Assembly: GCA_036630325.1 (NCBI GenBank) | Contig: CP142733.1 | Location: 868,001 to 932,000 of the forward strand | Source: Vairimorpha necatrix | Taxonomy: Eukaryota | Direction: 5' to 3' | Length of the DNA: 64,000 bases | Part shown: piece after piece, positions 17,698 to 41,049 of the stretch | Numbering within the stretch: position 1 is the first letter of the stretch | Layout: the number at the start of each line of letters is the position of its first letter | Notes under the pieces: generated by a model | The model's input: only the letters and a program-made list of their open reading frames with translations | Databases searched by the model: none | Told to the model about the DNA's origin: nothing | Program-made: the position numbers and the translations under genes

Positions 17698-17770
17698 GTG
17701 ACCTTAGTGTAGTGGTTATCACGTTTGTCTAACACGCAGAAGGTCCCCAGTTCGAGCCTGGGAGATCACA
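17698..17770 (+). tRNA. tRNA-Val(AAC)
   Basis: Acceptor GTGACCT/AGATCAC (one mismatch), D-loop AGTGGTTA, anticodon loop CT-AAC-AC, T-loop GTTCGAG, discriminator A, followed by a T-run. Confidence 0.93.
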
Positions 17771-39318: not shown

Positions 39319-40176
39319 ATGAATTTTTCTGTTTCTAATTTTCGCACTGACGAGAAGCTTTTCTCGATTCACATTAATAAAAATATTTACACAGGAGGTA
39401 CTTCTACTTTTCTCAAAGATGTGAGTAATAATGTTATTTTGTATAAACATGACAAGTCTATTACTCATATTACAAGTAGTGGGCCTTTCCTGGCTTGTAG
39501 TAGTTACGACTGTACAGTCTCAATATTCAAGGTCGAGAACATTGTCTATAAGTTAGAAGATGTCATTGAAGGACCAGACACAGAAATAAAATGCGTGTCT
39601 TTTGATTCTTCAAATTCTTGGCTGGCTTTCGCCACTAGGGGCAAATCCGTCTGGATTTGCCGTATAAATGAGTACATAGAAATCCATAAGATTTTAGAAG
39701 ACCACACTGAAGATGTAAAAGGCTGCCTTTTCTTTCTCGATTTCTTCGTCTCTTTCGGCTATGACAACACTATAAACCTCTACCAATATTTCAAATATAA
39801 TGAAGAATGGGAATTAGTTCAAGAAATAGAAGAAGAAGACACAGTCTGGAATGTGGTCTTTATAGAAGACAGGATGTATTCCTGTAATGCCAGTGGTGAG
39901 ATTTCTCTATATGTATTAGATAAAGGATATACTTTAAAAAAGAGGAAGAAGTTTAGTCATTTGCCCATTTTGGCACTGTGCGCTTATAAAAACAGACTTG
40001 TGGCGGGTTTAAATTTGGGAGACTTGATTTTCTTAGATTTAAATTTGGAAATAGTCCATGAGATGGAGAAAATACACACGGGATTTATAAATTGTGTTTA
40101 TTATTCAGAAAAAGATGAAATTTTAGGAACATGTAGTGATGATCAAACTTACAACATCCTCAAAGAAGAAGAATAA
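39319..40176 (+). CDS. CIA1: Cytosolic Fe-S assembly WD40 protein Cia1
   Basis: IEGPDTEIKCVSF, TRGKSVWI, LEDHTEDVK, SFGYDNTI. CCCC before the ATG. Confidence 0.88.
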   Translation: MNFSVSNFRTDEKLFSIHINKNIYTGGTSTFLKDVSNNVILYKHDKSITHITSSGPFLACSSYDCTVSIFKVENIVYKLEDVIEGPDTEIKCVSFDSSNSWLAFATRGKSVWICRINEYIEIHKILEDHTEDVKGCLFFLDFFVSFGYDNTINLYQYFKYNEEWELVQEIEEEDTVWNVVFIEDRMYSCNASGEISLYVLDKGYTLKKRKKFSHLPILALCAYKNRLVAGLNLGDLIFLDLNLEIVHEMEKIHTGFINCVYYSEKDEILGTCSDDQTYNILKEEE

Positions 40177-40238
40177 ATATTAATTTTAAAATTTTCAATT
40201 TTTTTTTATAAATTTTTCTTTTTTTTGGTACCCCAAAA

Positions 40239-40862
40239 ATGAGAAAGACAAATAACTTAGCAATAAGTAATTTGACCGACAAAGTATCTGTCAAACAGAT
40301 CGCTGACGCTTTCTCAAAATACGAATTTAAAATGTAAGTGAAGAAAATCAATTCCTTGGTTCGTGAATCTGAACTAATGATGATTATTATTGCAGATACT
40401 AATCTCAGAACATCAATAAACATCAAGGAAGTCTACAGAAGAGACGGAGGCAAGAAACTTGTAGGAAATGTCGAGTTTAAAGACACTGAGTCTATTGAAG
40501 AGGTAGTCGCCAGTGAGAAGATCTCAATTAATAATGAAGAATATCCTGTCTACTTTGCCAAGGGGCAAAGTAGCAAAGAGAAAGTCATCATCAGTGACAA
40601 GAAGCTGTACATTAAGGGACTGCCTAAAGATTTACAGGAGAGCGAGATCATCGACATGCTAGGGAAATGTAAAATCTCAACTACCAACCAGGGCTCTCAC
40701 ATAGTCTTCGCGGAATTTGAGAGTAGTGGGGAACAACAGGCGGCACTTGATAAACTGGAGAATATGGAGATAAAAGGAAGACAAGTAAGGGCAAGGAAAG
40801 CCCTTGAGAAGGTATTCCCACCTAAAGGAAAATTCAGAAGAGAAAAGGGAGGAGACCAATAA
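40239..40862 (+). CDS. Two-RRM RNA-binding protein; exons 40239-40333 and 40409-40862
   Basis: CCCCAAAA-ATG. RNP2-like LAISNL and LYIKGL, RNP1-like IVFAEF. Removing 40334-40408 fuses the frames (..YEFK-I-TSINIK..); the unspliced frame stops at TAA. Confidence 0.88.
40334..40408 (+). ncRNA. 75-nt spliceosomal intron containing a U18/snR18-like box C/D snoRNA
   Basis: GTAAGT donor, TACTAAT branch, CAG acceptor. C-like GTGAAGA 40338-40344, guide 40351-40365, D' CTGA 40369-40372, C' ATGATGA 40377-40383, D-like CAGA 40393-40396. Confidence 0.75.
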
Positions 40863-41049
40863 ATTATATTTTAGTATATAAAAATGAGACTTAATAAATC
40901 TTTTTTAACATGACTGCATTTTATTTAAATGTAAAAAAAACTAGACTTTTTTATTTAAAAAATTATTCTGCATAATATCATTAAAAAAGAAAAAACTAGA
41001 AATTTAAAATTGAATCTGCATAATACTATAAAGTACGAAAAATATGCTT

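What the first reader, a model, noticed from the sequence alone, without database searches (positions are those of the whole stretch)
40334..40408. The 75-nt intron of the RRM gene appears to be almost entirely a U18/snR18 snoRNA
Seen: the intron has C, D', C' and D-like boxes. The C-like box overlaps the 5' splice site and the D-like box abuts the branch point. ATTCCTTGGTTCGTG can form 15 bp (two G-U) with the conserved LSU rRNA segment CACGGACCAAGGAGU (recalled from other eukaryotes). The core TTGGTTCGTG-AAT-CTGAAC parallels U18 as I recall it (UUGGUCCGUG-UUU-CUGAAC). The fifth base upstream of D' targets the A of C-A-CGG, the U18 site. The terminal boxes both carry U-to-A changes (GTGAAGA, CAGA) at the k-turn U-U position. 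Known: U18 is intron-encoded in yeast and vertebrates, and microsporidian introns are typically about 25 nt, with a conserved longer intron reported in an RRM gene. Inference: snoRNA function explains why that intron, and perhaps the spliceosome, is retained.
Basis: partly seen in the sequence, partly recalled or inferred. Interest (0 to 1): 0.8.

Follow-up and report, generated by a model that had tools for sequence, protein, structure and literature searches.

The report
Intron-sized U18-like snoRNA in microsporidian gene
The one unusually long, conserved intron of a microsporidian RNA-binding-protein gene looks like a miniature U18-type guide RNA for ribosomal RNA methylation, with its end structure built from the splice signals, which would explain why this intron survives in very reduced genomes.

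Summary
Window 40334-40408 is a real 75-nt GT..AG intron. It is spliced in an RNA-like public run and in the NCBI protein of Vairimorpha necatrix. It carries GUGAAGA, a 10-15 nt antisense element, CUGA, UGAUGA and CAGA in box C/D order. Its best Rfam match is SNORD18 (26.1 bits, below the gathering score of 41), the only snoRNA match in the 64 kb.

New evidence supports a U18-type guide:
- A very distant environmental orthologue (L011) has a 75-nt intron at the same codon phase, with the same guide, spacing, D' and C'. Its best Rfam match is snoU18.
- All three gene calls that read through the guide region of the intron in other species are codon-compatible with guide+D'. They are in different reading frames, so selection acts on the RNA.
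- Both clades keep a canonical terminal K-turn, with paired changes: A.A/G-C against U.U/U-A.

Still untested: pairing with the species' own LSU rRNA, accumulation of the RNA, and methylation. Whelan et al. 2018 already floated "divergent snoRNA" for this intron family. The U18 identity, the target and the K-turn built from splice signals were not found in print. Confidence is about 0.62 and interest 0.7. I rate it a new variant of a known kind.

The parts
40239..40333 (+). Exon 1 of the RRM ('Poly-A' ORF) gene: 31 codons plus AT
   Evidence: Translation equals residues 1-31 of NCBI protein P0003.
40334..40408 (+). 75-nt spliceosomal intron, proposed to be a U18-type box C/D RNA
   Evidence: GT..AG joint 40333->40409 in 3 contigs of run X1; SNORD18 match 40333-40400, 26.1 bits.
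40334..40336 (+). 5' arm of terminal stem I (GUA, the first three bases of the 5' splice site)
   Evidence: Pairs with UAC 40397-40399 in canonical K-turn geometry (script); also the terminal pairs in the cmscan alignment.
40338..40344 (+). Box C-like GUGAAGA (U to A at position 5)
   Evidence: The same variant is codon-compatible in P0004 and P0009. It also occurs in plant-type U18 copies L006, L008 and L034.
40351..40365 (+). Antisense (guide) element; conserved core is 40356-40365, UUGGUUCGUG
   Evidence: Aligns without gaps to the SNORD18 guide. The core is identical in L011 and codon-compatible in P0004, P0009 and P0040.
40364..40364 (+). Fifth base upstream of D' (U), which would select the rRNA adenosine for methylation
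   Evidence: Counted from the sequence; same register as SNORD18.
40369..40372 (+). Box D' CUGA
   Evidence: identical in L011.
40378..40383 (+). Box C' UGAUGA, preceded by A
   Evidence: present in L011 two bases closer to D'.
40393..40396 (+). Box D-like CAGA (U to A at position 2); also part of the extended branch-point region
   Evidence: P0009 fixes C-A-R-A here. Whelan et al. 2018 describe the extension as U2-pairing.
40397..40403 (+). Branch-point box UACUAAU; its first three bases form the 3' arm of stem I
40406..40408 (+). 3' splice site CAG
40409..40862 (+). Exon 2, holding an RRM_1 domain and the stop codon
   Evidence: Pfam RRM_1, 35.5 bits; 100% identical to P0003.

Best explanation
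The intron encodes a minimal box C/D guide RNA of about 63-69 nt, homologous to U18/snR18/SNORD18.

Shown:
- The intron is spliced.
- It has canonical internal D' (CUGA) and C' (UGAUGA) boxes.
- Three bases upstream of D' lies the antisense element of the U18 family.
- A terminal C/D K-turn can form from GUGAAGA and CAGA, with stem I made of the first three bases of the 5' splice site and the first three of the branch-point box.
- These features are kept in distant species.

Inferred:
- After splicing, the excised intron binds Snu13, Nop56/58 and fibrillarin. It could do so debranched, in which case its 5' end, 4 nt before box C, needs no trimming and about 9 nt are trimmed at the 3' end. It could also do so still as a lariat.
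- It then pairs through UUGGUUCGUG (up to 15 nt in this species) with the conserved LSU rRNA segment next to the ls580r/NL4 primer site.
- It directs 2'-O-methylation of the A opposite U40364. This is the U18 site: yeast 25S A649 and human 28S A1313, both positions recalled.
- Because the splice signals lie inside stem I and box D, spliceosome binding and snoRNP assembly must be successive, not simultaneous.
For: (1) Rfam. SNORD18 is the best match to the intron: 26.1 bits, full model, E 0.0066 on 301 nt. It is the only snoRNA match in the window.

(2) An orthologue found in metagenome contigs. A scan with a pattern taken from guide+D'+C' gave 38 loci. By eye, 18 are U18 genes, 17 of them plant-type and L034 of unknown origin. 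One is L011, and 19 are chance matches in coding-looking DNA. L011 holds an RRM gene (Pfam RRM_1, 45.4 bits) with a GTAAGT...ACTAAC..CAG intron of exactly 75 nt at the same codon phase. Its protein shows no BLASTP similarity to the window's (E 11). Its best Rfam match is snoU18 RF01159, 30.2 bits, E 0.0051 on 221 nt, in the same clan CL00047. The same pattern gave only chance-looking hits in prokaryote genomes (14 loci) and viral contigs (1 locus).

(3) Unbiased conservation. Proteins were found by exon-2 homology. Some are gene calls that begin inside the intron. Three of these reach the guide: P0004 at 65% and P0009 at 35% identity to the window protein, and P0040 at 50% identity to the L011 protein. 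All 3 of 3 are codon-compatible with TGGTYCGTGNNNCTGA, against 35 of 200000 random 24-aa peptides. The motif lies in a different reading frame in P0009 than in the window, so the constraint is on the RNA and not on a peptide.

(4) P0004 against the window. 18 of 18 codon-fixed positions are identical across box C, guide and D'. Over the 72 nt compared, 35 of 39 fixed positions are identical.

(5) Terminal K-turn. Each of the two intron DNAs has exactly one C/D pair in canonical geometry: stem I, a 3-nt bulge, tandem G.A, the 5/2' pair and the 6/1' pair. Shuffled controls give this in 0.25% (strict) to 1.7% (loose) of cases for the window and 1.3-8.0% for L011. With only the 5' segment shuffled the figures are 0.3-0.7% and 1.1-8.9%.

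(6) Paired changes in stem II of the K-turn. The window clade has A5.A2' and G6-C1' (window; P0009 fixes A5 and A2'; P0004 is compatible). The L011 clade has U5.U2' and U6-A1' (L011; P0040 fixes U5, a non-G at position 6, and AUGA).

(7) Precedent for the box C variant. Plant-type U18 copies inside SNOR75/Z105 clusters also carry GUGAAGA and also score below the gathering score (37.9, 32.3 and 32.0 bits).

(8) Literature. Whelan et al. 2018 (Results and Discussion read) report this intron family in 15 microsporidia, with a conserved internal region holding CUGA and UGAUGA. It is the best-spliced intron, in a poorly conserved but highly expressed host gene. Canzler et al. 2018 (passages) state that the snoRNP machinery is present in Microsporidia.

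(9) The target. The primer ls580r, which works on Nosema and Vairimorpha LSU rDNA (Table 2 of PMC2719812), ends in the complement of 8 nt of the predicted target, including the A.

(10) RNA. Run X1 behaves as cDNA: it has poly(A) loose ends at 40884 and shows the spliced joint. Its contigs cover the intron as well as the joined form. Contig depths cannot rank the two forms.
Against: - Both Rfam scores are below the curated gathering scores (26.1 against 41; 30.2 against 47). At window scale the E-value is 1.4.
- Neither terminal box matches consensus. The box C-like motifs lie at different distances from the 5' splice site in the two DNAs (positions 5-11 against 10-16).
- CAGA is also explained by the extended branch-point/U2 pairing described by Whelan et al..
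- GUA/UAC pairing comes for free with any GUAAGU...UACUAAY intron.
- L011 was found with a pattern that required guide, D' and C', so those features in L011 are not independent evidence.
- The K-turn criteria were written after seeing the sequences.
- The covariation rests on two clades, which amounts to one event per pair, and partly on back-translation.
- The spacer between C' and D is only 9-10 nt.
- The intron alone has no significant fold (z -0.96 and +0.21).
- No rRNA of this species was available, and there was no small-RNA, methylation or protein-binding data.
- Lineages that lost the intron survive.
Confidence: 0.62

Rival explanations
1. The sequence descends from U18, but it is now kept for something other than methylation. 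It might act as a non-modifying rRNA-folding chaperone, or as a Snu13-binding K-turn that helps this intron splice efficiently. The predicted A would not be methylated through it.
For: The terminal boxes deviate from consensus at positions said to matter for fibrillarin/Nop58 recruitment (recalled from work on stem II of the C/D motif). The C'-D spacer is only 9-10 nt. This is the most efficiently spliced intron in several species. Snu13 is shared by snoRNPs and the U4 snRNP (established knowledge).
Against: The 3-nt distance between guide and D' is kept exactly in the window, L011, P0004, P0009 and P0040. That distance matters only for placing the methyl group. D' and C' are fully canonical. 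Compensated changes in stem II suggest that the full C/D RNP fold is under selection.
Confidence: 0.17
2. The conserved parts are purely splicing signals and a splicing-related stem-loop: the extended U2 pairing and a protein-binding loop, as Whelan et al. proposed as an alternative. The likeness to U18 is coincidence.
For: CAGA+UACUAAU fits the hyper-extended branch point. GUGAAGA overlaps the 5' splice site. The Rfam scores are sub-threshold. A local hairpin over the guide region appears in minimum-energy folds.
Against: The hairpins in the two introns use different, non-homologous pairs, and the folds are no better than shuffles. The guide is conserved as sequence, in different reading frames, across proteins that are 35-65% identical to the window's or unalignable to it. 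A sequence that pairs with another molecule would behave this way. In L011 the D-like box AUGA is followed by UGACUAAC, not by the CAGAUAC form, yet the K-turn geometry is kept. The best Rfam hits of both introns fall in one clan out of 4227 families.
Confidence: 0.13
3. The intron holds a decaying snoRNA relic without present function.
For: The terminal boxes are degenerate. Several lineages have lost the intron.
Against: The internal core is identical between clades whose host proteins are no longer alignable. In P0004, 18 of 18 fixed positions are conserved where the host protein is 65% identical. A neutral relic would not persist in this way.
Confidence: 0.05

Closest known systems
U18 / snR18 / SNORD18 box C/D snoRNAs (Rfam RF00093 and RF01159, clan CL00047)
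   Same: Same antisense core and the same 3-nt distance to D', hence the same predicted LSU target. Intron-encoded, as in yeast and vertebrates (recalled: the EFB1 intron and RPL4 introns). Only the D' guide is used. The GUGAAGA box C variant also occurs in plant-type copies.
   Different: It fills almost the whole intron. Box C starts at intron base 5 and box D ends 12 nt before the 3' splice site. Stem I is made of splice-site and branch-point bases. Box D reads CAGA (AUGA in the L011 clade). The second half is cut down to a 9-10 nt spacer. Scores are below Rfam's gathering scores.
Conserved 'long introns' of microsporidian Poly-A (ECU09_1470 family) and S23 genes (Whelan et al. 2018, PMC6349667; Grisdale et al. 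2013, PMC3629993)
   Same: This is a member of that intron family. It has the same host gene type, the same exon-1 length (95 nt), and the same intron length (75 nt) and gene length (624 nt) as listed for Nosema ceranae in their Supplementary Table 1. It has the CUGA and UGAUGA motifs and an extended branch point.
   Different: That paper (Results and Discussion read) only raised 'highly divergent snoRNAs' as a possibility and favoured a stem-loop. A term search of its text found no 'U18', and the sections read name no rRNA target and no terminal K-turn. Its figures could not be seen.
Independently transcribed microsporidian C/D snoRNAs (Belkorchia et al. 2017, PMC5499648: U31/snR67, U38/snR61 and U40-U46/snR63 homologues)
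   Same: Few snoRNAs, all aimed at conserved LSU sites. A short terminal stem close to boxes C and D.
   Different: Those are intergenic genes with consensus boxes. The authors judged intronic ncRNAs 'highly unlikely' and did not search introns.
Mirtrons (analogy only, recalled)
   Same: A small functional RNA whose end or ends are set by splicing rather than by a dedicated nuclease.
   Different: A different RNA class and different machinery. Here only the 5' end would be set by splicing, and this is inferred, not shown.

Membership tests
U18/SNORD18/snR18 (Rfam clan CL00047) | Covariance-model score at or above Rfam's gathering score | tested here: not met
   Window: 26.1 bits against 41. 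L011: 30.2 against 47 for RF01159. For comparison, 4 of 8 SNORD18 hits in U18 loci from the metagenome scan also fall below 41 (40.9, 37.9, 32.3, 32.0; 7 of the 38 loci were scanned).
U18/SNORD18/snR18 (Rfam clan CL00047) | The family's antisense element placed so that the fifth base upstream of D' addresses the U18 site | tested here: met
   Gap-free alignment from UGGU.CGUG through CUGA to the SNORD18 consensus. Same in L011 against RF01159. The 3-nt spacer length is kept in 5 taxa.
U18/SNORD18/snR18 (Rfam clan CL00047) | At least 10 bp of complementarity to the organism's own LSU rRNA at that site | not testable with these tools
Indirect support only: primer ls580r, which works on Vairimorpha, covers 8 nt of the target.
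Box C/D snoRNA (general) | Box C RUGAUGA near the 5' end and box D CUGA near the 3' end, forming a K-turn closed by a terminal stem | tested here: inconclusive
   One mismatch in each box (GUGAAGA, CAGA). The canonical K-turn geometry is present once in each of the two introns and is rare in shuffles. There are paired changes between clades. However, CAGA and the GUA/UAC stem also have splicing explanations.
Box C/D snoRNA (general) | Internal D' and C' boxes able to form a K-loop | tested here: met
   CUGA 40369-40372 and UGAUGA 40378-40383, 5 nt apart. Also in L011, 3 nt apart.
Box C/D snoRNA (general) | Stable RNA bound by Snu13, Nop56, Nop58 and fibrillarin, with a 2'-O-methyl at the target | not testable with these tools
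   The only data are contigs of one cDNA-like run, which cover the intron but cannot show ends or levels.
Microsporidian conserved long-intron family (Whelan et al. 2018) | Intron of about 67-81 nt at the 5' end of the RRM 'Poly-A' ORF, with an internal region holding CUGA and UGAUGA and an extended branch point; efficiently spliced | tested here: met
   RRM_1 in exon 2. Exon 1, intron and gene lengths of 95, 75 and 624 nt equal the N. ceranae entry. The motifs were read directly. The spliced joint is seen. Splicing efficiency and U2 pairing were not tested.

The most novel reading that the evidence does not exclude
The excised intron itself is the snoRNA, possibly while still a lariat, and the same nucleotides are read twice. 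First they serve as the 5' splice site, the U2-binding extension and the branch point. After release they serve as stem I and box D of a C/D K-turn. In this reading the spliceosome makes the snoRNA's 5' end, and the 2'-5' bond lies 3 nt from stem I (branch A inferred from consensus), where it could close the stem. Under this view the need to make U18 is a main reason why the most reduced spliceosomes of microsporidia persist. Lineages that lost splicing either dropped the modification or kept the U18 core in an unspliced leader, as P0040 hints.
Probability: 0.3. Interest if true: 0.85.

Novelty: new variant of a known kind. Interest (0 to 1): 0.7.

Why it matters
Why a handful of introns and a stripped-down spliceosome survive in microsporidia has been an open question. 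This intron family is the best-conserved and best-spliced one, and its function is unknown. A concrete identity makes the question directly testable: U18, with a named rRNA target and a defined RNP fold. It would add a fourth rRNA methylation guide to a minimal snoRNA set. It would also provide a compact natural example of an RNA in which splicing signals and snoRNP signals overlap. And it suggests that snoRNA surveys that skip short introns miss genes.

Tried and rejected
- **Whole genome.** None is held for this window, so the species' LSU rRNA, U2 snRNA, Dbr1 and other snoRNAs could not be examined.
- **Unreadable figures.** The supplementary figures of Whelan et al. (intron alignments) are PDFs and unreadable. 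Only the coordinate tables were seen.
- **Sequencing runs.** No RNA holder is listed for the stretch. Of the two runs found, X2 covered only 40562-40776.
- **Intron depth.** The intron bins have summed contig depths of 56177-75914 against about 140000-150000 in the adjacent exon bins and about 348 in the flanks. These are contig means and were not used to argue that the intron accumulates.
- **Stem-loop idea.** Minimum-energy folds are no better than shuffles, and the hairpins are not homologous between the two introns. I rejected this as the main constraint.
- **Other collections.** The pattern scans of prokaryote genomes and viral contigs gave 14 and 1 loci. All look like chance matches by eye; they were not scanned with Rfam.
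- **Region-restricted protein search.** A search with the first 60 residues of the read-through returned only the V. necatrix protein.
- **Second guide.** I considered one between C' and D. It would be 9 nt and AT-only, so I rejected it.
- **L034.** I looked for a U18 sitting in an S23 intron. No host gene was recognisable, so I dropped this.
- **Literature.** Searches for 'microsporidia' with 'U18' and 'snoRNA', with 'snR18', and with 'SNORD18' found 0 papers each. 'ECU09_1470' occurs only in Grisdale 2013 and Whelan 2018. 'Vairimorpha necatrix' with 'snoRNA' found 2 papers unrelated by title. By their titles and abstract starts, none of the 18 papers listed (of 19 found) since 2019 with microsporidia+splicing+snoRNA+intron identifies this intron. 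Subscription journals are not covered.
Full report
**What is there.** The gene at 40239-40862 (+) has a 95-nt first exon, a 75-nt intron (40334-40408) and a second exon with an RRM_1 domain. Only the 3' site at 40408 keeps the frame. The window comes from Vairimorpha necatrix or something indistinguishable from it. A 182-aa NCBI protein named 'RNA-binding protein [Vairimorpha necatrix]' is 100% identical to exon 2, and its sequence is exon 1 + Ile + exon 2. One public run (X1) is labelled 'DNA?' but behaves as cDNA: it has poly(A) loose ends at 40884, and its depth falls from tens of thousands inside the gene to about 348 outside. It holds 3 contigs that join 40333 to 40409 (skips 75, GT..AG), and it also holds contigs that cover the intron.

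**The motifs.**
- GUGAAGA at 40338-40344
- AUUCCUUGGUUCGUG at 40351-40365
- AAU spacer
- CUGA at 40369-40372
- UGAUGA at 40378-40383
- CAGA at 40393-40396
- UACUAAU at 40397-40403
- CAG at 40406-40408

**Is it more than chance?** cmscan against all 4227 Rfam families on 40200-40500 puts SNORD18 first: 26.1 bits, full-length, E 0.0066. Plasmodium snoR30 is next. From UGGU.CGUG through CUGA the alignment has no gaps. The fifth base upstream of D' (U40364) therefore addresses the same rRNA position as in U18. The score is below the gathering score (41). Over the whole window the E-value is 1.4, though this is the only snoRNA match among the 5 matches with E<=10. On its own this is a lead, not a proof.

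**Related sequences as DNA.** No genome is held for the window. I therefore scanned metagenome contigs with a pattern built from guide core + 3 nt + CUGA + 3-8 nt + UGAUGA, which gave 38 loci. By eye:
- 18 loci are U18 genes with flanking C and D boxes, 17 plant-type and L034 of unknown origin.
- 19 loci are chance matches in coding-looking DNA.
- One locus, L011, is a microsporidian-type orthologue.

I scanned 7 of the 38 with Rfam. Five plant-type loci also carry SNOR75 and Z105 genes. Across these five and L034, SNORD18 scores run from 32.0 to 47.1 bits, and 4 of the 8 hits are below 41.

L011 has an RRM gene (RRM_1, 45.4 bits). Its first exon ends in phase 2, exactly as in the window. Its intron is GTAAGT...ACTAAC..CAG and is again exactly 75 nt. 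The two exon-2 proteins are too far apart for BLASTP (E 11). Even so, 40 of 75 ungapped intron columns are identical: the splice signals, the 10-nt guide and CUGAAC. L011's best Rfam match is snoU18 (RF01159): 30.2 bits, E 0.0051 on 221 nt, in the same clan as SNORD18. The same pattern found only chance-looking hits in prokaryote genomes (14 loci) and viral contigs (1 locus). Because L011 was found through the pattern, its guide, D' and C' are not independent evidence. Its gene, phase, intron length and flanking motifs are.

**Related sequences without that bias.** Searches with the exon-2 protein returned orthologues. Several of them are gene calls that start inside the intron and read it in the exon-2 frame. 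Three reach the guide:
- P0004, 65% identical to the window protein
- P0009, 35% identical to the window protein
- P0040, 50% identical to the L011 protein

All 3 of 3 are codon-compatible with TGGTYCGTGNNNCTGA, whereas 35 of 200000 random 24-residue peptides are. In P0009 the motif lies in another reading frame than in the window, and in P0008 the D'-C' part lies in a third. The constraint is therefore on the nucleotides and not on a peptide. For P0004, 18 of 18 codon-fixed positions from box C through D' equal the window. Over the 72 nt compared, 35 of 39 fixed positions do. This fits the report by Whelan et al. 2018 of a conserved internal region with CUGA and UGAUGA in 15 microsporidia (Results and Discussion read).

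**The terminal boxes.** GUGAAGA overlaps the 5' splice site. CAGA+UAC belongs to the extended branch point, which Whelan et al. interpret as U2 pairing. GUA/UAC pairing is automatic in such introns.

I wrote a search for canonical C/D K-turn geometry: stem I of 3 bp or more, a 3-nt bulge, tandem G.A, the 5/2' pair and a Watson-Crick or G-U 6/1' pair. Each intron has exactly one solution.

| | Box C (intron positions) | Box D (intron positions) | Stem I | 5/2' pair | 6/1' pair |
|---|---|---|---|---|---|
| Window | GUGAAGA (5-11) | CAGA (60-63) | 1-3 with 64-66 | A.A | G-C |
| L011 | GUGAUUA (10-16) | AUGA (59-62) | 4-8 with 63-67 | U.U | U-A |

Shuffling the variable segments gives such a geometry in 0.25% (strict) to 1.7% (loose) of cases for the window, and in 1.3% to 8.0% for L011 (20000 shuffles each). 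With the 3' segment held fixed, so that CAGA is granted to U2 pairing, the figures are 0.3-0.7% and 1.1-8.9% (40000 shuffles each). The criteria were set after seeing the data, so these figures are indicative only.

The read-through peptides agree with the two-clade picture. P0009 fixes A at C5 and C-A-R-A at box D. P0004 is compatible with UGAAGA and CNGA. P0040 fixes U at C5, a non-G at C6, and AUGA at box D. The two stem-II pairs of the K-turn therefore change together between clades. In L011 the D-like box is followed by UGACUAAC rather than the CAGAUAC form, so there it is not simply a by-product of the extended branch point seen in the window.

Anchored on box C, the next 13 nt are 10 of 13 identical between the two DNAs. 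Plant-type U18 copies also use GUGAAGA.

**What does not fit or is missing.**
- Rfam thresholds are not met.
- The C'-D spacer is short, at 9-10 nt.
- The intron has no significant fold of its own (z -0.96 and +0.21). The hairpins over the guide differ between the two introns, which argues against the stem-loop idea rather than for the snoRNA.
- The species' LSU rRNA could not be obtained. The only support for the target is that primer ls580r, said to work on Nosema and Vairimorpha, is the complement of a stretch ending in 8 nt of the predicted target (Table 2 of PMC2719812).
It is absent in L011, where the bases before UUGG are AA.
- Nothing shows accumulation of the RNA, protein binding or methylation.

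**Mechanism proposed.** Shown: splicing, the motif order, the conservation and the K-turn potential. Inferred:
- After the spliceosome releases the intron, Snu13 binds the K-turn, and then Nop56, Nop58 and fibrillarin join.
- The 5' end left by splicing and debranching lies 4 nt before box C. This is where mature C/D RNAs usually start (recalled), so no 5' trimming is needed.
- About 9 nt are removed at the 3' end. Alternatively the lariat persists, with the inferred branch A 3 nt beyond stem I.
- The D' guide pairs with LSU rRNA, and the A opposite U40364 is methylated.
- U1 and U2 binding and K-turn formation use the same bases, so they must be sequential.

**Known or new?** The intron family, its conservation and the general thought that it might encode 'highly divergent snoRNAs' are in Whelan et al. 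2018. Belkorchia et al. 2017 excluded introns from their snoRNA search as 'highly unlikely' hosts (passages). No paper in the searchable library links microsporidia with U18, snR18 or SNORD18 (0 papers each). ECU09_1470 occurs only in Grisdale 2013 and Whelan 2018. I could not see the supplements of Canzler et al. 2018, which might name the two C/D families they detected in Microsporidia (paper reading closed). Subscription journals are not covered. I therefore rate this as a new variant of a known kind: a U18 homologue compressed into an intron, with splice signals forming part of its terminal fold.

**On the wider claim.** That U18 explains retention of the spliceosome is not tested. Whelan et al. 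list seven taxa without the intron. In the L011 clade, Nematocida-type proteins begin with a peptide homologous to the read-through of the 3' end of the L011 intron. P0040 leaves no AG possible at the homologous 3' site, yet it stays compatible with guide, D' and C'. If that holds at the DNA level, the U18 core can outlive splicing. That would support the snoRNA function but weaken the spliceosome argument.

Noticed in passing
Proteins P0039 (Nematocida displodere NEDG_00711), P0041, P0043, P0045; compare L011 1474-1500 (-): These Nematocida-type orthologues start with MISNF/LI. This aligns with MMTNFR, the exon-2-frame read-through of the last 17 nt of the L011 intron (D-like box, branch point, 3' site). 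It looks as if the intron's 3' end became the start of the protein after splicing was lost, with exon 1 dropped.
   Followed up: partly
Protein P0040 (unnamed source; 50% identical to the L011 protein): The upstream in-frame extension MIISLVRVSEHDDVVGMITNLI is codon-compatible with box C (UGAUUA), guide, D', C' and AUGA. No AG is possible at the place homologous to the L011 3' splice site. This may be a U18 core kept in an unspliced leader.
   Followed up: partly
L006, L008, L012, L013, L016-L018, L022, L026, L028, L029, L033, L034: These U18 copies carry GUGAAGA instead of RUGAUGA as box C, with a normal CUGA box D. The plant-type ones scanned (L006, L008) sit in clusters with SNOR75 and Z105. 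The three scanned with Rfam score 32-38 bits, below the SNORD18 gathering score.
   Followed up: partly
L034 1439-1690: This U18 copy lies after a GTATGT. Its box D is directly followed by GCTAAC and an AG within 10 nt, which resembles the microsporidian layout. A second CTAAC...TAG lies about 100 nt further on. No host gene was recognised.
   Followed up: partly
window 40100-40900 in run X1: The run is labelled 'DNA?' but shows poly(A) loose ends at 40884, a spliced joint, and roughly 100- to 500-fold more depth inside the gene than in the flanks. The host gene therefore appears very highly expressed, as Whelan et al. report for other species.
   Followed up: no
window 40709: A C>T difference appears in contigs of both runs X1 and X2 (third base of an exon-2 codon). 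It is probably a strain polymorphism.
   Followed up: no
window 40334-40340: The intron length is a multiple of 3, so the exon frame continues through the intron. The stop TAA lies inside the 5' splice site (G-TAA-GT), so unspliced mRNA would give a 32-residue peptide. The C' box supplies two in-frame ATGs (40377, 40380). This explains the 'wrong start' annotations noted by Whelan et al.
   Followed up: partly
window 39319-40176 (+) and 17698-17770 (+): The upstream neighbour is a 285-aa WD40-repeat protein (Pfam WD40, 51 bits). A tRNA gene is the only Rfam match in the window above a gathering score.
   Followed up: no
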